Source of the DNA: Neptunicella sp.
GTDB taxonomy: Bacteria; Pseudomonadota; Gammaproteobacteria; Enterobacterales; Alteromonadaceae
Assembly: GCF_048268085.1 (NCBI RefSeq)
Contig: NZ_JBLWWF010000012.1
Coordinates: 19,909-83,908 of the forward strand
DNA: 64,000 bases
Direction of reading: 5' to 3'
Positions 53,006-60,258 of the stretch are shown in pieces; within the stretch, counting starts at the first letter, position 1, and each line of letters opens with the position of its first letter. Below the pieces are notes generated by a model. It made no database searches and was not told the DNA's origin. It was given only the letters and a program-made list of their open reading frames with translations. The translations under genes and the position numbers were made by a program.

Positions 53006-53626
53006 TTGAATACAATGACAATTTATATTGTGGACGATGATGCCGCCTTTCGAGAGTCTCTGGTTTGGTTGCTGGAAGGAGCTGGCCATATTGTTAGTGC
53101 ATATGAAAGTGGCGAGGCTTTCTTACACGCTTGTACAGACAATAAAGATTCAATACAGGGATGTTTGTTACTTGATGTCCGCATGAACGGAATGAGCGGG
53201 CTGACCTTGCAACAAGAGTTAAACCAACGCGCTATTACACTCCCGGTCATTATCGTCACCGGCCATGCAGATGTCGCTATGGCAGTACAAGCGATGAAAA
53301 ATAAGGCCGTTGATTTTATTGAAAAACCCTTTGATGACGATAAATTATTAAGGTTGATTGACCGGATACTCGGTGATTTATCACAACAAAGTACTATAGA
53401 GAAACAACAAACACAGCATATTGAACGATGGCGTTCATTGACCAAACGGGAGGAACAGGTGGCTCAGTTGGTCATTGCTGGGCGAGTAAATAGAGAAATT
53501 GCTGAACAACTCGGTATTAGTATCAAAACCGTTGAAATTCATCGCAGTCGTGTCATGAGCAAAATGCAGGCGCGGAATATTGCGGAATTAATAAAACAAC
53601 ACGTCGATCTTCAGCCCTCTATATAA
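53006..53626 (+). CDS. FixJ/LuxR(NarL)-family response regulator
   Basis: Receiver domain (IYIVDDD...LLLDVRMNGMSG...TGHADV) plus a C-terminal GerE HTH (LTKREEQVAQLVIAGRVNREIAEQLGISIKTVEIHR). Either the TTG at 53006 (SD aagag upstream) or the ATG at 53015. Confidence 0.88.
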   Translation: MNTMTIYIVDDDAAFRESLVWLLEGAGHIVSAYESGEAFLHACTDNKDSIQGCLLLDVRMNGMSGLTLQQELNQRAITLPVIIVTGHADVAMAVQAMKNKAVDFIEKPFDDDKLLRLIDRILGDLSQQSTIEKQQTQHIERWRSLTKREEQVAQLVIAGRVNREIAEQLGISIKTVEIHRSRVMSKMQARNIAELIKQHVDLQPSI

Positions 53627-54524: not shown

Positions 54525-54740
54525 TTACTTCTTAGAAGAAAGACCACCGAAGCGTTTGTTGAATTTCTCGATACGACCACCGCTATCAACGTTACGTTGT
54601 TTACCAGTATAGAACGGGTGACATTCTGAACATACGTCCAGGAACAAATCATTCTTACAAGTAGAACGGATAGTCATTTTGTTACCACAAGAACAGTTTG
54701 CAGTAATTTCGTTATATTCCGGGTGTATACCTTCTTTCAT
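54525..54740 (-). CDS. rpmE: 50S ribosomal protein L31 (Zn-ribbon type A)
   Basis: MKEGIHPEY...CSCG...[12 protein letters not shown] is the canonical L31 with both Cys pairs. Confidence 0.96.
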
Positions 54741-54943
54741 GGGATAGCCTCTTTATTTTGGCCCGTATCGCAATCCGGCCCGTAGCCAAACACCATACGT
54801 GTTTTACAGTTAACAACCTGCTGGTTGCATTTTTTGGAGGCGGGATTCTAAAGTATGCCACCGCTACAGGCAAGTACTATTTGTGGTTTTAATAACCGAT
54901 TTCAATAAAACATTTATCACGCCAAGGCGCAAAGATCACAGAG

Positions 54944-54987
54944 GGAAAGATAATTCAGCAACGAGTGGCGAGCTTCGAGCGACGAGC
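54944..54987. repeat. left arm of an imperfect inverted repeat bounding the AT-rich island
   Basis: ggaaagataattcagcaacgagtggcgagcttcgagcgacgagc. The 12-mer cgagtggcgagc (54963-54974) is the exact reverse complement of 57936-57947. The whole block is about 70-75% similar to the reverse complement of 57936-57978 by hand alignment. Confidence 0.5.
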
Positions 54988-55190
54988 TAAAGAAAAACAC
55001 ACTGGACCCCGTTCCGGCTCAAAGGATTACCGGTATGACGAAGACTACCGGGGTGACAAATAAAACAACACGTGGGGATAACAGATAAAAATATAATCAC
55101 CACAACAGTCCAAAGAATGGATAAGAAAGGGTGGACTAATCTATTCAATCGGAGTAAAAAGACAACTAATAAAACGGAATTTATTAGAAC

Positions 55191-55895
55191 ATGGATGTAT
55201 TTATTTCAGATTGTTTCTCTCAATTGGTTCAAAATTTAACTTTTTCATTAAGTTGTCGTCAATTATTCCATAAGCTAAACGACATTGTTCAATATTTGGG
55301 GTTTGACTATTATGCATATAGTGTTCATGCGGCTTTTCCTGTAAGTAATCCAAGTTTTGTATTTTATAGTAATTACCCTGATGAATGGAAAAAAAAGTAC
55401 GCAAAGAATAACTACCCTATAGAAGACCCAACGATAATACACGGCCTTAAAACTTCACTTCCTCTCATATGGAGAGCTAATGAGGTAACTAAACAAAAGA
55501 ATTTCTGGGAAAATGCATTTACTCACAAGATTAGGTGTGGATGGACTCAATCTGCCGTACTGAATCCTCATAATACTGCCGTTTTTACTATGGCATGTAA
55601 AAAGCAAATTGATGTTTCACACCAGTTACAATCTCACCTGCTTACTTTGAGCGCTACGTTCCATAATTTATACACTAAAGTGGTGCTTGCTGAAGTGCCA
55701 GATATAAATCTAACAAAAAGAGAAATTGAAATCCTAAAATGGTGTTCTGATGGAAAAACATCCGAAGAGATCGCCATGATACTTAATGTCAAAAAGCGCA
55801 CAATTAGTTTTCATATAGCGAATGCGATAAATAAGCTTAATGTAAATAATAAAACATCTGCTGCTGTTAGAGCCGTTCAATTGAAAATTCCATAA
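55191..55895 (+). CDS. LuxR-family acyl-homoserine-lactone-type receptor/transcription factor (no cognate synthase in the window)
   Basis: Autoinducer-binding pattern YPDEWKKKY......EDP...........LIW....CGW, equivalent to TraR W57, Y61, D70, P71, W85 and G113. C-terminal GerE HTH (LTKREIEILKWCSDGKTSEEIAMILNVKKRTISFHI). Confidence 0.85.
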   Translation: MDVFISDCFSQLVQNLTFSLSCRQLFHKLNDIVQYLGFDYYAYSVHAAFPVSNPSFVFYSNYPDEWKKKYAKNNYPIEDPTIIHGLKTSLPLIWRANEVTKQKNFWENAFTHKIRCGWTQSAVLNPHNTAVFTMACKKQIDVSHQLQSHLLTLSATFHNLYTKVVLAEVPDINLTKREIEILKWCSDGKTSEEIAMILNVKKRTISFHIANAINKLNVNNKTSAAVRAVQLKIP

Positions 55896-56497
55896 AACAT
55901 TCAGCTTTTGAACATAATCTGACCGAGCCGAGATCATAAAATCATCAGTCCGGCTTCAGCTTAAAACACTTAGGCTCATGCTCTTGTTCTGGTGTTTAAG
56001 TTAACCCTCTCATTTATCGTCAATAGTATTTCTGCACATAACCAATGGTTCCCGGCAACTTATTGCCTAGTGTAGGAAAGCTTTGGGTGATAAATAGTTT
56101 AAAAAATTAACCTTCTTAGCATAAATACTTCATTGATCACATCCGGATCAGTTTTTGGATAGCAAGTATTTGAAATATATACAATATTAGGTTCTCATAA
56201 ATAAATTTATATGTTGCAGATGCTTTTGCAGACTTATGACCAGACAGCTGATTTACCCTGTCATTTATGCCAGTTTTTAATCGGCTAGATGTCTGATTTA
56301 ATCTTTCTGACGGGAATTACATGCTCTTTAAATAATCGTTTCAAATCAATGGTGTTATATAAGTTAATGATATTTAACATAAAATATTTTCAGCGTGAGT
56401 TGATTGATTGTGAGTAAAGAGCATTTTGTCTTTAGTCAACATTCTTAATTCATTGAAAGGATAACTGTAATGAAAACTTAAAAAAATATTAAACATA

Positions 56498-56911
56498 TTG
56501 GTTTTATTTTCTCTATTAGGTGCAACTTCAGCATATGCTCAAACAGGTTCTTGGGAAGAGGAAAGGCCTCGTTATACAATTTATGGAAGTGGTGGGTATG
56601 CTGAAACCCTGTTTTATAATTTGCAGACACCAAGAACAGGCATCCACATTACAAATGTAGAATGGAATTGGGTTGGTTATAGCAATGGATTTGATTCGCA
56701 AACAGTGGAAATTTGTTATAGAACACCTAGCGGCTACAATGACGTACTATGTTTTGATATATCAGACCTCCAAACAGGTCAATTAAGCGGCTTTAATGGA
56801 TATGACCCCAGAGGAACAATAGTGCTACGTTATACCCTGGTTGGTGGCACGTATTATGCCTATGGAACTAGTGGAGCTGACGACATAATAACAGTCACTT
56901 ATAGCGATTAA
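56498..56911 (+). CDS. hypothetical secreted beta-rich protein with an ambiguous or disrupted 5' end; possible FlhE-like fold
   Basis: The ORF begins in the middle of a signal peptide (VLFSLLGATSAYA-QTG). A good SD (aaagga) and ATG at 56470 lie one nucleotide out of frame. The mature part is rich in Gly, Tyr and Thr, with 2 Cys. The order of GSW, W.W, C...C, VGG and V.Y resembles FlhE as I remember it (weak). Confidence 0.5.
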   Translation: MVLFSLLGATSAYAQTGSWEEERPRYTIYGSGGYAETLFYNLQTPRTGIHITNVEWNWVGYSNGFDSQTVEICYRTPSGYNDVLCFDISDLQTGQLSGFNGYDPRGTIVLRYTLVGGTYYAYGTSGADDIITVTYSD

Positions 56912-56930
56912 GATAAAATTAGGGGGTAGG

Positions 56931-57704
56931 ATGCTAATAGATACCGACAAAGTTACTATTGATTCAAGAGCCATAGTCTCAAAAGATGTGATTGACAAAG
57001 AGGCGGTCGGAGACTATCAAGTTGAATTATCTGAAATTACACTTAGTCAAACTGGGCAAGACATTAATGATCTTTATCAAAAGGTTTTACAGGTCGCAAA
57101 AGAGCATCCATCCCCTATTTATATATCAGTAGATAAACGCTTTGAGTTGTTGGAAAAGACGGCAAGTATGATCGCTGCGAAATCAGATATTAGTTATACA
57201 TCTGAGCAAATCCATAGGGCTTCACAAGATGTTGGGAAAGAGCTAAATATTACTGAAATTCCCCCCGGAGATATAAGCGCCGGAGGGGGAAATGTATTTT
57301 CTTTTCTAAGCCAAGAAGATAAAACTCGTTTAGGCGAGGCTTATCAACATGCACTGGATAACAACTCCGATCTGAAAGACGTAAACACTGTTGCTTTTAC
57401 TTTAGCTATTGCTAAATTTAGGGAAGAAAAAATTGCTTCTGGGACTATCTACGGAACTTTTAGTAAAGAAGAAAGAGAAAGTCTCTATGAGCTTAACAAT
57501 AAATTAGAAGCTCCTTCTGATGAAATAAAACAATCAGGAAGAGATTTCGTTGAAGTATTGAAAAGCGAGTTAGAGGGGAATGATCTATTTTCTTCAAATC
57601 CTTTTTTAAAAACATTAATTCAACGTGATAGTATTTTTGATATATTAGAAGCAAGAGACCCAGACTACTTTAATAAAAATATCCGTAAAAAGTTTTTCAC
57701 TTAA
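56931..57704 (+). CDS. hypothetical protein (257 aa, acidic, no signal peptide or TM segment)
   Basis: Strong SD (aggggg) 5-6 nt before the ATG, 19 nt after the upstream stop. Coding-like periodicity. No family I recognise. Confidence 0.55.
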   Translation: MLIDTDKVTIDSRAIVSKDVIDKEAVGDYQVELSEITLSQTGQDINDLYQKVLQVAKEHPSPIYISVDKRFELLEKTASMIAAKSDISYTSEQIHRASQDVGKELNITEIPPGDISAGGGNVFSFLSQEDKTRLGEAYQHALDNNSDLKDVNTVAFTLAIAKFREEKIASGTIYGTFSKEERESLYELNNKLEAPSDEIKQSGRDFVEVLKSELEGNDLFSSNPFLKTLIQRDSIFDILEARDPDYFNKNIRKKFFT

Positions 57705-57935
57705 TTTGTAAGCTTTTTTGCTGATTCTGACACAAAAATAGGTTGTTTGAGCAGAGTCGAAAGTGAGCTGTTTTTTTACAGATAATAGAGTACTATTTTT
57801 TCACAGAATACATTAATGGAAAGTTAGTAATATATTTGAGTACTACTTTGTCGTTGTGAATTTTTCGATCGACGAGCTTTAAATTCCTTTCTCCGTGCCC
57901 CTGTGGTCAATAAGCTTTTTCTTTTTTTGCTTTTG

Positions 57936-57978
57936 GCTCGCCACTCGAAGTCCGCTGCTCGCTGCTATTACTATTTCC
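57936..57978. repeat. right arm of the imperfect inverted repeat bounding the AT-rich island
   Basis: gctcgccactcgaagtccgctgctcgctgctattactatttcc. See the left arm at 54944..54987. Confidence 0.5.
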
Positions 57979-58071
57979 TATTCTAATTAAATCGAATACA
58001 TGACCTGACGCGGCAGTTACTTTATAGTAATAAGCCTGTAATGTTAGTTTGCCTCTACTACCTGAGATCCT

Positions 58072-60258
58072 ATGGCCTGTACTATTGCTGATGTAGCCAT
58101 TGGCGTTCCTAAACGTACCTTATTTGATTACCTCATTGCTGACACCGTGCCAGAGATTGGTGCGCGGGTACTAGTACCATTTGGACGGCGCAAACTGGTG
58201 GGTATTGTATTAGGTCTCAAAGAGCAATCCAACTGGCCGGTTGATAAATTAAAACCAATCGAACAAGTATTAGACCAACAGCCGGTGTTTAGCCCCGCCA
58301 TGCTAACCATGCTTAAGTGGGCTAGCCAATATTATCAACACCCTATTGGTGACGTGTTGCAATCCGCCTTGCCGGTATTATTACGCAACGGCAAATCCAG
58401 TCAGATGCCAGCTATTTTAATCTGGCAATGTAGCGAATCGGGTCAACAAACCGACGAGGCTGAGTTAAAACGTTCGCCTAAACAGCAGCAACTACTGTTG
58501 TTGTTAAAACAACAGCCGATGCCAGACAGCGAACTAAAACAACAATTTAGTAGCGCCATTATTAACGCACTGCATAAAAAAGCATTGATTGAACAACAAC
58601 ATATTATCCCTGAGCTGGAAAATTACTGGCATCATCAATTACAAATATCGTCAGGCCCCAACCCGGGAATTGAACAATCGCTGGCGATTACCGGTATCAC
58701 CAGTCACCTAGATCGGTTTCATCCAGTTTTACTCGAAGGCGTAACTGGCAGTGGTAAAACCGAAGTCTATTTACAAGCCATTGAGCCACTATTAAAACAG
58801 GCCAAACAGGTATTGATTCTGGTACCGGAGATAGGACTCACGCCACAAACAGTACAACGCTTTAAAACACGTTTTAATGCCCCGGTGGGATTATTGCATT
58901 CCAATCTGACCGATAACGAACGACTGGCGGTATGGCGTCAGGCCAAAGAAGGTCAACTCGCCATTGTTATTGGTACCCGTTCGGCGATTTTTACCCCTTT
59001 TAAACAGCTGGGGATGATTATCGTTGATGAAGAGCATGATAATTCCTATAAACAGCAGGACGGTTTCCGTTATCACGGACGGGATTTGGCGGCTGTCCGC
59101 GCTCGCCAACAGAATATTCCGCTACTATTAGGCAGCGCCACACCCTCGTTGGAAAGCTTACACAACGCCTTAAGCAACAAGTATCAACATTTTCAATTAC
59201 AACAGCGCGCGGGTGTCGCTCAAATTGCCCGTCAGCAGGTGTTTGATATAAAAAATCAGCCTCTGCAATTCGGCATCGCCAAAGGCATGCAAGATCGCAT
59301 GGCGGCACACTTGCAACAGGGTAATCAGGTGATGGTGTTTATTAACCGACGCGGATTTGCCCCCAGTTTGTTATGCCATCATTGCGGTTATGTAGAGATG
59401 TGCCATCGCTGTGATAAAAGCTATACCCTGCATAAAGGACTGAATAAACTGCAATGCCATCACTGCGGTGATGCTAAACATATTCCCCAGCATTGTCATG
59501 ACTGCCAATCTCCCCAATTGATCAGTATGGGAGTCGGCACCGAACAGCTAGAACAGGGTTTAAATCAACTTTTTCCTGCTTACAAAAGTATCCGTATTGA
59601 TAGCGACAACATCCGCAGTAAAAGCCGTTTTCACCAGATGCTGGAAGATATTAATCAGGGTGAATATCAGATCTTGATTGGCACGCAAATTTTAGCCAAA
59701 GGCCATCATTTCCCCAAGGTAACCTTAGTACTGATAGTGGATGTGGATGGCGCATTATTCAGTATGGATTTTCGCGCGGCGGAAAATTTATCCCAGTTAA
59801 TAACCCAAGTAGCCGGGCGGGCTGGTCGAGCTGAACAACCAGGCGAAATGTGGTTACAAAGTCATCATCCCGAACATCCGTTATTACAAGACTTGCTCAA
59901 TAACGGCTACGGCCACTTTGCCCGTTATGCTTTGCAGGAACGTAAACTGGCACAACTCCCCCCTTTTAGCTTTCAGGCATTAGTTCGTGCTGAAGCCAAT
60001 TCAGCCAATAAGGCTCATCAATTTTTGCAACTGGCACAGCAGTATTTTATCGATGCCAACGAAGTTATCAGTATGGGCCCCTTCCCCGCCCTAATGGAGA
60101 AACGTCAGGGTCGTTACCGCATGCAGTTACTGCTACAAAGTCCCAATCGAGCCAGCTTGCAAAAAGCCCTCTTTAATGCGATCCCTCAGATTGAAAATCG
60201 TCCTGAAAGCAGCCAAATTCGCTGGTCAGTCGATGTGGATCCGCAAGATTTCACATAA
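58072..60258 (+). CDS. priA: primosomal replication restart helicase PriA
   Basis: Walker A (LLEGVTGSGKTEVY), DEEH box (IIVDEEHD), the Cys-rich zinc region (CHHCGY...CHRCD...CHHCG...C.DC) and GTQILAKGHHFP. Confidence 0.96.
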   Translation: MACTIADVAIGVPKRTLFDYLIADTVPEIGARVLVPFGRRKLVGIVLGLKEQSNWPVDKLKPIEQVLDQQPVFSPAMLTMLKWASQYYQHPIGDVLQSALPVLLRNGKSSQMPAILIWQCSESGQQTDEAELKRSPKQQQLLLLLKQQPMPDSELKQQFSSAIINALHKKALIEQQHIIPELENYWHHQLQISSGPNPGIEQSLAITGITSHLDRFHPVLLEGVTGSGKTEVYLQAIEPLLKQAKQVLILVPEIGLTPQTVQRFKTRFNAPVGLLHSNLTDNERLAVWRQAKEGQLAIVIGTRSAIFTPFKQLGMIIVDEEHDNSYKQQDGFRYHGRDLAAVRARQQNIPLLLGSATPSLESLHNALSNKYQHFQLQQRAGVAQIARQQVFDIKNQPLQFGIAKGMQDRMAAHLQQGNQVMVFINRRGFAPSLLCHHCGYVEMCHRCDKSYTLHKGLNKLQCHHCGDAKHIPQHCHDCQSPQLISMGVGTEQLEQGLNQLFPAYKSIRIDSDNIRSKSRFHQMLEDINQGEYQILIGTQILAKGHHFPKVTLVLIVDVDGALFSMDFRAAENLSQLITQVAGRAGRAEQPGEMWLQSHHPEHPLLQDLLNNGYGHFARYALQERKLAQLPPFSFQALVRAEANSANKAHQFLQLAQQYFIDANEVISMGPFPALMEKRQGRYRMQLLLQSPNRASLQKALFNAIPQIENRPESSQIRWSVDVDPQDFT

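What the first reader, a model, noticed from the sequence alone, without database searches (positions are those of the whole stretch)
54944..57978. AT-rich 3-kb insertion splitting the rpmE/priA pair, bounded by inverted repeats and lacking mobility genes
rpmE and priA are divergent immediate neighbours in E. coli and many other Gammaproteobacteria. Here their start codons are 3.3 kb apart.

Composition: the intervening DNA is visibly AT-rich. My hand counts on single 60-nt lines give 23% and 33% G+C at the start of the luxR-type ORF, against about 40% at the start of priA.

Content: three same-strand ORFs (an AHL-type LuxR and two orphans) are separated by unusually long non-coding spacers of about 600 nt and 370 nt.

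Boundaries: the block is bracketed by inverted sequence. cgagtggcgagc (54963-54974) is the exact reverse complement of gctcgccactcg (57936-57947), and these sit inside 43-44-nt blocks that align at about 70-75% in inverted orientation. Weaker similarity seems to continue inward (tgacc...cgg...aaagga(a)tt on both sides).

I see no integrase, transposase or tRNA. The block looks like a non-autonomous cassette, a decayed element, or a pair of oppositely oriented copies of a dispersed repeat that mediated the insertion.
Basis: partly seen in the sequence, partly recalled or inferred. Interest (0 to 1): 0.72.

Follow-up and report, generated by a model that had tools for sequence, protein, structure and literature searches.

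The report
Foreign gene islet between rpmE and priA
A marine Neptunicella bacterium has picked up about 3 kb of AT-rich foreign DNA between two normally adjacent housekeeping genes; it is an ordinary, immobile and partly decayed gene islet, and the inverted repeats around it are short heptamer arrays older than the cargo, not the ends of a mobile cassette.

Summary
rpmE and priA start 3,331 nt apart, against a median of 250 nt in 73 related loci. The DNA between them is 35% G+C against 44% for the rest of the window, and it carries a LuxR-type gene plus two unannotated genes.

The inverted repeat is real (0 of 1000 shuffles reach its score). It consists only of four tandem heptamers (NNCGAGC) on each side.

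- **Arms predate the cargo.** Both arms are orthologous in the sister species N. plasticusilytica. There they enclose unrelated, gene-less DNA of host-like G+C.
- **AT-rich core is inset.** It starts 60-80 nt inside the arms.
- **No transposon or cassette signs.** I found no target duplication, no other arm copies, no attC and no transposase or integrase remnants.

The cargo is a mosaic. The LuxR gene has an intact ligand pocket, but its nearest relatives sit beside rsaM and luxI, and neither is here. The two unannotated genes form a conserved pair: a secreted beta-rich protein and a helical protein. This pair recurs on a Glaciecola plasmid and in regions rich in transposases or toxin-antitoxin genes. 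Here its first gene has a frameshifted start.

Verdict: a small, lineage-specific, horizontally acquired islet at a variable intergenic site. Interest is low to moderate.

The parts
54525..54740 (-). rpmE (ribosomal protein L31), left host flank
   Evidence: Pfam Ribosomal_L31, E 3e-32.
54747..54799 (-). L31 ribosomal-protein leader, intact, outside the insertion
   Evidence: Rfam RF03157, 38.3 bits against a gathering score of 33.2.
54944..54997 (+). Left inverted-repeat arm. Its core, 54960-54987, is four tandem heptamers: AACGAGT GGCGAGC TTCGAGC GACGAGC.
   Evidence: Best inverted local alignment, score 37, reached by 0 of 1000 shuffles. The heptamer array is unique in the window, with 0.01 expected. 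It is orthologous to L002 7100-7151.
55004..55062 (+). Short GC-rich hairpin-type element of host-like composition. It is the only interior sequence shared with the sister species, where it lies inverted; the exact 19-mer is 55041-55059.
   Evidence: 19/19 match to L002 7400-7382, score 38, reached by 0 of 300 shuffles.
55078..57865 (.). AT-rich foreign core (about 2.8 kb) defined by the G+C change points
   Evidence: CUSUM of G+C; 35% against 44% G+C and GC3 of 26-27%.
55191..55895 (+). LuxR-family AHL-receptor gene (234 aa) with no luxI or rsaM partner nearby
   Evidence: Autoind_bind 4e-24 and GerE 1e-19. QscR 3szt matches at 2e-39, with W66, Y70, D79, P80, W94 and G117 conserved. The nearest relatives are 41% and 37% identical, and both sit beside DUF4902 + LuxI. 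No luxI or DUF4902 trace is found in the window.
55896..56469 (.). 574-nt non-coding spacer, 32% G+C, with no recognisable gene remnant, RNA family or lux-box-like dyad
56470..56911 (+). ORF2, a small secreted beta-rich protein with two conserved Cys. The ancestral ATG at 56470 is out of frame by +1 (atg aaa act TAA), and the open frame restarts at TTG 56498.
   Evidence: The translation from 56474 aligns with the signal peptides of its homologues. It is 68% identical to the A. stellipolaris protein P0004 (146 aa). The AF2 model is all-beta but poor, pLDDT 48. No family hit.
56931..57704 (+). ORF3, a 257-aa all-helical protein without a signal peptide. It is the conserved partner of ORF2.
   Evidence: 40 cluster representatives at E <= 1e-3 among 1.84 billion. 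An ORF2-like gene lies directly upstream in 7 of 8 distinct loci examined. No Pfam, PDB, PADLOC, NCBIfam or PHROGs hit.
57864..57877 (+). Fifth copy of the 14-mer (TTCGATCGACGAGC), a direct repeat of 54974-54987. It sits exactly at the right G+C change point.
   Evidence: (D8). It is not significant on its own: 69 of 1000 shuffles reach its score.
57925..57978 (-). Right inverted-repeat arm. Its core, 57936-57963, is four heptamers: GCTCGCC ACTCGAA GTCCGCT GCTCGCT.
   Evidence: It is orthologous to L002 7875-7918, 80% identical over 44 nt.
58000..58028 (+). Promoter-like site for priA (ATGACC-17-TATAGT), outside the insertion. The TATAGTA element is conserved in N. marina and N. plasticusilytica.
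   Evidence: sequence comparison.
58072..60258 (+). priA, right host flank
   Evidence: PriA domains in Pfam. 88% identical to Neptunicella sp. SCSIO 80796.

Best explanation
This is a small, lineage-specific, horizontally acquired islet, now immobile and partly decayed. It sits in the divergent promoter region between rpmE and priA of a Neptunicella species.

The history has at least two layers:
1. After N. marina split off, the common ancestor of this species and N. plasticusilytica acquired a short element in the rpmE-priA spacer. Its remains are two inverted arrays of four NNCGAGC heptamers and a small GC-rich hairpin element (inferred).
2. Later, about 2.8 kb of AT-rich foreign DNA entered between these arrays in this lineage only. 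The sister lineage accumulated other, gene-less DNA there, including a dispersed 220-nt repeat (inferred).

The cargo is a mosaic of two units:
- A LuxR-family AHL receptor gene. Its ligand-binding residues are intact, but it has been cut off from the rsaM-luxI partners that accompany its closest relatives, so locally it is a LuxR 'solo'.
- A conserved two-gene module of unknown function: a small secreted beta-rich protein followed by a 257-aa helical protein. This module travels among plasmids and accessory regions of Alteromonadaceae. Here its first gene has lost its start and signal peptide through a +1 frameshift.

The heptamer arrays are not the transposition ends of the present cargo. 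At most they mark a fragile or recombinogenic spot, a former palindrome, that favoured insertion by illegitimate recombination (inferred, not shown). Both host promoters and the L31 leader lie outside the insertion and stay intact.
For: **Insertion into a tight pair.** 73 of 80 related loci have rpmE divergent from and next to priA, with a median gap of 250 nt and a maximum of 1,352; this window has 3,331. N. marina has a 243-nt empty site.

**Foreign composition.** 35.1% against 44.3% G+C, GC3 of 26-27% against 42-44%, and the lowest 2.9-kb stretch in the window.

**Arms older than the cargo.**
- Both arms are orthologous in N. plasticusilytica.
- Its 1.09-kb spacer has no genes, no remnants of the three genes, and 48% G+C.
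- That spacer contains a dispersed 220-nt repeat.
- The AT-rich core starts 60-80 nt inside the arms.

**Mosaic cargo.**
- ORF2+ORF3 occur together on the Glaciecola plasmid pGLAAG01, between IS4, Tn3 and integrase genes.
- They occur together in A. stellipolaris next to tyrosine recombinases and a Tn3 fragment.
- They occur together in metagenomic contigs among toxin-antitoxin pairs.
- None of these copies has the luxR gene.
- The closest LuxR relatives sit beside DUF4902 (RsaM) + LuxI (arrangement reviewed in PMC10710839). No trace of either gene is found here.

**Decay and immobility.** ORF2 has a frameshifted start. There is no tRNA and there are no transposase or integrase remnants.
Against: - The order of events is inferred from only three Neptunicella genomes. 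The sister species could instead have lost the same cargo and refilled the site.
- A 14/15 direct repeat (54974-54988 and 57864-57878) brackets most of the block, and its right copy coincides with the G+C change point. This could indicate recombination at a heptamer array rather than random illegitimate insertion.
- The whole genome could not be scanned for further arm copies, so a low-copy repeat family is not excluded.
- The ORF2 frameshift lies in an A-run and could be a sequencing error.
- No function is shown for any of the three genes, and no link between the LuxR protein and ORF2/ORF3 was found.
Confidence: 0.62

Rival explanations
1. The block is a non-autonomous transposon or cassette. 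The ~55-nt inverted arms are its terminal inverted repeats, mobilised in trans, and the cargo is exchangeable between lineages.
For: - The inverted repeat is significant.
- The arms lie close to the ends of the segment that N. marina lacks.
- There are no mobility genes inside.
- The sister species has the same arms with different content.
Against: - There is no target-site duplication at the ends (sequence).
- Similarity is confined to low-complexity heptamers and is at chance level outside them.
- There is no other copy in the 64-kb window or in 1.4 Mb of related loci.
- The AT-rich core is inset by 60-80 nt.
- The arms are at the same chromosomal site in both species, so nothing shows that they ever moved.
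- The module's other copies have no such arms or shared flanks.
Confidence: 0.15
2. The whole 3-kb block, arms and genes together, entered the common ancestor in one event. The sister species later deleted the genes and filled the gap with repeats.
For: - The arms and one 19-nt interior element are shared by the two species.
- Gene loss plus repeat invasion is common in intergenic DNA. The sister interior does contain a dispersed repeat.
Against: - No remnant of any of the three genes is found in the sister spacer, even by sensitive tblastn.
- The sister interior has host-like G+C, while the window's cargo is still strongly AT-rich and unameliorated.
- The stretches just inside the arms are host-like in G+C.
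Confidence: 0.15
3. The inverted arms define an invertible or regulatory segment, or a structure that regulates rpmE or priA, rather than a relic of insertion.
For: - The inverted repeats flank a segment placed between two divergent promoters.
- One interior element has opposite orientation in the two species.
Against: - No invertase or recombinase gene is found in the island or in the 64-kb window among those tested.
- A 2.9-kb gene-bearing interior is atypical for a promoter switch.
- The arms are only about 75% complementary.
- In the sister species the left arm has degraded and its two arms are no longer significantly complementary.
Confidence: 0.04

Closest known systems
LuxR 'solos' (orphan AHL receptors such as QscR of P. 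aeruginosa and SdiA of E. coli)
   Same: It has the same two-domain architecture. QscR is the best solved relative (E 2e-39), and all six hallmark ligand-pocket residues are conserved. No luxI is found within the 64-kb window.
   Different: It is only 37-41% identical to its nearest relatives. Those belong to luxR / rsaM-luxI loci, so this looks like a fragment of such a locus rather than an old dedicated solo. The absence of luxI from the whole genome is untested.
Small genomic islets at intergenic hot spots, lacking the integrase and tRNA of classical genomic islands
   Same: It has a sporadic distribution, deviant G+C and codon use, and orphan genes. Its cargo is also seen on plasmids and next to transposases.
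   Different: It has no tRNA, no integrase and no direct-repeat att sites of a recognised kind. It lies between the promoters of two housekeeping genes.
MITEs and non-autonomous transposons with terminal inverted repeats
   Same: Inverted repeats bracket DNA that has no transposase.
   Different: There is no target duplication and no other copy in the available sequence. The repeat is only a heptamer array, and the arms stay at the same site in a sister species with different content.
Integron gene cassettes
   Same: The genes are AT-rich, promoter-poor, orphan and unidirectional, with no mobility genes. Distant ORF2/ORF3 pairs lie in arrays that have repeated intergenic elements and toxin-antitoxin pairs.
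   Different: The island has no RYYYAAC...GTTRRRY pair of attC spacing. No integrase related to those tested is found in the window.

Membership tests
LuxR-family AHL receptor | N-terminal autoinducer-binding domain plus C-terminal GerE/LuxR helix-turn-helix domain | tested here: met
   PF03472 4e-24 and PF00196 1e-19.
LuxR-family AHL receptor | Conserved pocket residues (TraR W57, Y61, D70, P71, W85, G113) | tested here: met
   W66, Y70, D79, P80, W94 and G117 align with QscR W62, Y66, D75, P76, W90 and G113 in the phmmer alignment. The mapping to TraR numbering rests on established knowledge.
LuxR solo | No cognate luxI in the genome | not testable with these tools
   tblastn with the two LuxI proteins of the nearest relatives finds nothing in the 64-kb window. 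The rest of the genome is not available.
Transposon / MITE | Terminal inverted repeats | tested here: inconclusive
   The inverted repeat is significant. It is limited to four heptamers per arm and is at chance level outside them.
Transposon / MITE | Target-site duplication flanking the ends | tested here: not met
   No direct repeat abuts the outer ends of the arms. The only nearby direct repeat is internal (54974-54988 and 57864-57878).
Transposon / MITE / REP | Multiple dispersed copies in the genome | tested here: not met
   No further copy is found in the 64-kb window or in 82 loci. The whole genome could not be scanned.
Transposon | Transposase gene or a remnant of one | tested here: not met
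   No Pfam hit in the block's ORFs. tblastn with IS4, Tn3, integrase and other mobility proteins from the module's other contexts finds nothing.
Classical genomic island | Insertion next to a tRNA or tmRNA gene, with an integrase and att direct repeats | tested here: not met
   No tRNA in the window and no integrase.
Classical genomic island | Deviant composition and sporadic distribution among relatives | tested here: met
Integron gene cassette | attC site (R''/L''...L'/R' with RYYYAAC and GTTRRRY) at the 3' end | tested here: not met
   No such pair with 50-150 nt spacing exists on either strand of 54741-58071.
Invertible DNA segment | Inverted repeats plus a nearby site-specific invertase | tested here: not met
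   Inverted repeats are present. No recombinase is found among the neighbouring genes.

The most novel reading that the evidence does not exclude
Two readings remain open.
- Short inverted arrays of GCTCGNN/NNCGAGC heptamers also occur as compact palindromes in unrelated bacteria. They could be a general class of fragile 'landing pads' that capture foreign DNA at their centre.
- The ORF2-ORF3 pair could be a new mobile two-gene system, for example a secreted toxin or effector with a cytoplasmic partner. In this genome it may have come under the control of a captured LuxR receptor.
Probability: 0.1. Interest if true: 0.6.

Novelty: new member of a known kind. Interest (0 to 1): 0.3.

Why it matters
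The result shows how a tight pair of housekeeping genes can become a variable site. It also shows that inverted repeats around foreign DNA need not be the ends of a mobile element: here they are older, low-complexity heptamer arrays.

Two by-products may be useful:
- A rare, uncharacterised two-gene module (about 40 cluster representatives among 1.84 billion) that moves among plasmids and accessory regions of marine Gammaproteobacteria.
- A divergent LuxR receptor, cut off from its synthase gene, in a genus where quorum sensing has not been described.

Neither changes current understanding.

Tried and rejected
**Arms as a dispersed repeat.**
- The 12-mer, the 14-mer and the heptamer arrays were searched in the window and in 82 loci. 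They occur only at this locus and its orthologue.
- A metagenome scan with a degenerate arm pattern gave 28 hits. All are unrelated heptamer microsatellites in varied G+C backgrounds, with no extended homology.
- The viral collection gave 0 hits.

**Extended inverted repeat.** Inverted similarity outside the heptamer core is at chance level.

**Decayed quorum-sensing locus.** There are no luxI or DUF4902 remnants.

**LuxR control of ORF2/ORF3.** There is no CTG-N10-CAG or other 16-20-nt dyad in the spacers.

**Integron cassette.** There is no attC-type box pair. The generic regex is uninformative on other loci.

**Function of ORF2 and ORF3.**
- Pfam, NCBIfam, PHROGs and PADLOC gave nothing.
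- A PDB profile search gave nothing.
- The AF2 models were poor (pLDDT 48 and 61).
- Foldseek against the PDB gave no match with E <= 0.001.

**Other searches that led nowhere.**
- ncRNA in the spacers: only the L31 leader.
- Plasmid DNA search with the whole island: no match.
- Exact-sequence look-ups of the window's own proteins: not on record.
- Literature on rpmE/priA islands and on LuxR solos in Alteromonadaceae: nothing found.
- A second putative module copy on pGLAAG01 (L113 2158-3449): not homologous.
Full report
**Source and setting.** The PriA protein of the window is 88% identical to that of Neptunicella sp. SCSIO 80796 (locus L002) and 72% identical to that of N. marina (L001). L002 is the type strain of N. 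plasticusilytica (PMC12366299). The window therefore comes from a third Neptunicella species (Alteromonadaceae). Its island proteins are on record in NCBI as 'Neptunicella sp.'.

**Anatomy of the locus.**
- rpmE lies at 54525-54740 (-).
- An intact L31 leader lies at 54747-54799 (Rfam RF03157).
- priA lies at 58072-60258 (+).
- Between them, all on the + strand, are:
  - a LuxR-type ORF at 55191-55895;
  - ORF2, with open frame 56498-56911 and ancestral start at 56470;
  - ORF3 at 56931-57704.

**Checking the observation: spacing and composition.**
- The two start codons are 3,331 nt apart.
- In 73 of 80 loci recovered with PriA, rpmE lies divergent from and directly upstream of priA. The median gap is 250 nt and the maximum 1,352.
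- The block 54998-57924 is 35.1% G+C against 44.3% for the rest of the window. It is the lowest 2.9-kb stretch in the window.
- GC3 of the three ORFs is 26-27%, against 42-44% in the flanking host genes.
- There is no tRNA in the whole window.
- tblastn with transposases and integrases from other contexts of the cargo finds nothing.

**Checking the observation: the inverted repeat.**
- It has 42 matches in 56 columns and a score of 37. In 1000 dinucleotide shuffles the mean is 20.4 and the maximum 30.

**What the arms are.** Each arm is a run of four tandem heptamers with consensus NNCGAGC.
- Left arm: AACGAGT GGCGAGC TTCGAGC GACGAGC (54960-54987).
- Right arm, reverse complement: AGCGAGC AGCGGAC TTCGAGT GGCGAGC (57936-57963).

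This explains why the exact 12-mer match is in a register shifted by 14 nt from the best long alignment. With the heptamer cores removed, the outer flanks and the inner flanks show no inverted similarity above chance: 356 and 374 of 1000 shuffles reach the observed score. The 'weaker similarity continuing inward' is not supported.

Arrays of this kind are otherwise absent from the 64-kb window, where 0.01 are expected. They are also absent from 78 other Alteromonadaceae loci totalling about 1.4 Mb.

A metagenome scan with a degenerate arm pattern gave 28 hits. These are unrelated GCTCGNN heptamer microsatellites in organisms of 37-70% G+C and have no extended homology to the arms. Some form compact inverted pairs only 3-35 nt apart (L088, L091, L100). 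So heptamer-array palindromes do exist as small intergenic units elsewhere.

**Comparison with relatives.**
- N. marina has an empty site of 243 nt. Relative to it, the extra DNA in the window spans roughly 54900-57985 and includes both arms.
- N. plasticusilytica has a 1,091-nt spacer with no gene.
- Homology to the window runs through the left arm, to about 54980. It resumes at the right arm: 57925-57968 matches L002 7875-7918 at 80% identity.
- The interior of the sister spacer is unrelated:
  - its G+C is 48%, which is host-like;
  - it contains a 220-nt dispersed repeat, with a second copy 3.8 kb away;
  - it has no remnant of any of the three genes by tblastn.
- The only significant interior similarity is a 19-nt exact match in inverted orientation, within a small GC-rich hairpin element (window 55041-55059 = L002 7400-7382).
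- In the sister species the left arm has degraded, and its own two arms are no longer significantly complementary.
- A G+C change-point analysis puts the AT-rich core at 55078-57865, which is 60-80 nt inside the arms.

Together these results mean the arms belong to an older layer shared by the two species. They are not the termini of the present cargo.

One detail does not fit neatly. The right change point coincides with a fifth copy of the 14-mer (57864-57877). This copy forms a 14/15 direct repeat with 54974-54988. The repeat is not significant on its own, since 69 of 1000 shuffles reach its score. It could still mark recombination at a heptamer array.

**The cargo: the luxR gene.**
- The protein has an autoinducer-binding domain and a GerE domain.
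- Its best solved relative is the orphan receptor QscR (E 2e-39).
- The six hallmark pocket residues are conserved: W66, Y70, D79, P80, W94 and G117.
- Its closest relatives among 5.8 billion proteins are only 41% and 37% identical.
- Both relatives lie divergent to a DUF4902 (RsaM-type) gene followed by luxI. This is the arrangement reviewed in PMC10710839.
- In the window neither gene, nor any remnant of either, is detectable.
- Locally this is a LuxR without a synthase, most simply a fragment of such a locus.

**The cargo: ORF2 and ORF3.** These form a conserved pair. An ORF2-like gene ends 20-65 nt before an ORF3-like gene at each of these places:
- A. stellipolaris (L081), next to tyrosine recombinases and a Tn3 fragment, with a partial tandem second copy;
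- the Glaciecola plasmid pGLAAG01 (L113), between an IS4 transposase and transposase, integrase and Tn3 genes;
- several metagenomic contigs (L082, L115, L116-118, L119/120), the last ones among toxin-antitoxin pairs.

In all, 7 of 8 distinct ORF3-family loci examined show the pairing; L114 is the exception. None of these copies has the luxR gene next to it, and their flanks share no DNA with the window.

The ORF3 family is rare, with 40 representatives at E <= 1e-3 among 1.84 billion clusters. Neither protein matches Pfam, NCBIfam, PHROGs, PADLOC or PDB sequences.

The structure models are poor:
- ORF2 is all-beta with pLDDT 48.
- ORF3 is all-helical with pLDDT 61.
- Foldseek finds nothing.

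In the window the ancestral ORF2 start (ATG 56470) is out of frame: 'atg aaa act taa'. The frame that aligns with the homologues' signal peptides begins with an in-frame stop. The gene has therefore lost its start and the n-region of its signal peptide, unless the extra A is a sequencing error.

**How it most likely works.**
- Shown:
  - this is an insertion into an ancestrally tight gene pair;
  - its composition is foreign;
  - its cargo is a mosaic also found on mobile DNA;
  - the arms predate the cargo or are at least independent of it;
  - it has no mobility functions.
- Inferred:
  - a short element with inverted heptamer arrays, possibly a palindrome, arose in or entered the spacer in the common ancestor of two Neptunicella species;
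  - the site then became variable;
  - the AT-rich luxR + ORF2/ORF3 DNA was captured between the arrays in this lineage by illegitimate or array-mediated recombination;
  - it is now fixed and decaying.

Both host promoters and the L31 leader lie outside the arms, so the housekeeping genes are probably unaffected. No lux-box-like dyad was found upstream of ORF2 or anywhere in the spacers. A regulatory link between the LuxR protein and the module is therefore unsupported.

**Rivals.**
- A non-autonomous transposon with exchangeable cargo remains possible. It lacks a target duplication, further copies and similarity beyond the heptamers.
- A single ancestral insertion followed by loss in the sister species is possible. 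It leaves no remnants, and it does not explain the host-like G+C just inside the arms.
- An invertible switch is unlikely because there is no recombinase.

**Site variability elsewhere.** Other Alteromonadaceae have independently placed single unrelated genes in the same spacer (L064, L065). The site tolerates insertions.

**Verdict.** This is an ordinary small genomic islet with one oddity (the heptamer-array arms) and one uncharacterised mobile gene pair. It is a new member of a known kind, and its interest is low to moderate.

Noticed in passing
window 56470-56500: The ancestral ATG of ORF2 is followed by 'aaa act taa'. Removing one A restores MKLKKILNILVLFSLLGATSAYA, a typical signal peptide like those of the homologues. 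This is a frameshift in an A-run: real decay, phase variation or a sequencing error.
   Followed up: partly
L091 ~900-990; L088 2850-2910; L100 ~1560-1663; L096 8693-9132: GCTCGNN/NNCGAGC heptamer arrays occur in intergenic DNA of unrelated bacteria (37-70% G+C). Some are compact inverted pairs 3-35 nt apart. In one TARA contig they recur about every 48 nt over 440 nt. I do not know of a described family.
   Followed up: partly
window 54974-54988 and 57864-57878: A 14/15 direct repeat, TTCGA(G/T)CGACGAGCT. Its right copy sits exactly at the G+C change point of the AT-rich core. It could be a recombination footprint, but it is not significant on its own.
   Followed up: partly
L002 3543-3765 and 7582-7801: A 220-nt dispersed repeat (83-84% identical, inverted) in N. 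plasticusilytica, with one copy inside its rpmE-priA spacer. No copy is found in the 64-kb window.
   Followed up: partly
L081 9328-9636: Downstream of the A. stellipolaris ORF2-ORF3 pair there is a partial second copy: the 3' end of ORF2 followed by a 70-aa start of ORF3. This suggests tandem duplication of the module.
   Followed up: no
L116 3983-4171, 5004-5039, 6994-7118, 8211-8248, 8617-8725, 9536-9639: The contig carrying a distant ORF2/ORF3 pair has repeated 40-190-nt intergenic elements between small genes and two Gp49/HTH_3 toxin-antitoxin pairs. This looks like a cassette array. Canonical attC boxes were not confirmed.
   Followed up: partly
L064 6796-7755; L065 7080-7544: Glaciecola sp. 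XM2 and Ningiella sp. W23 each have one unrelated gene (319 aa and 154 aa) inserted between rpmE and priA. The spacer has been hit independently in several lineages.
   Followed up: partly
L050, L055, L057, L058, L060, L063, L075; L045: In seven Pseudidiomarina loci rpmE lies about 1.6-2 kb upstream of priA on the same strand, not divergent. In Pseudidiomarina sp. YC-516-91 priA is on a 415-kb record labelled as a plasmid.
   Followed up: no
window 53006-53626: A response regulator with a GerE-type helix-turn-helix domain lies 1.6 kb upstream of the island. It is a host gene unrelated to the island's LuxR protein apart from the shared DNA-binding domain.
   Followed up: no
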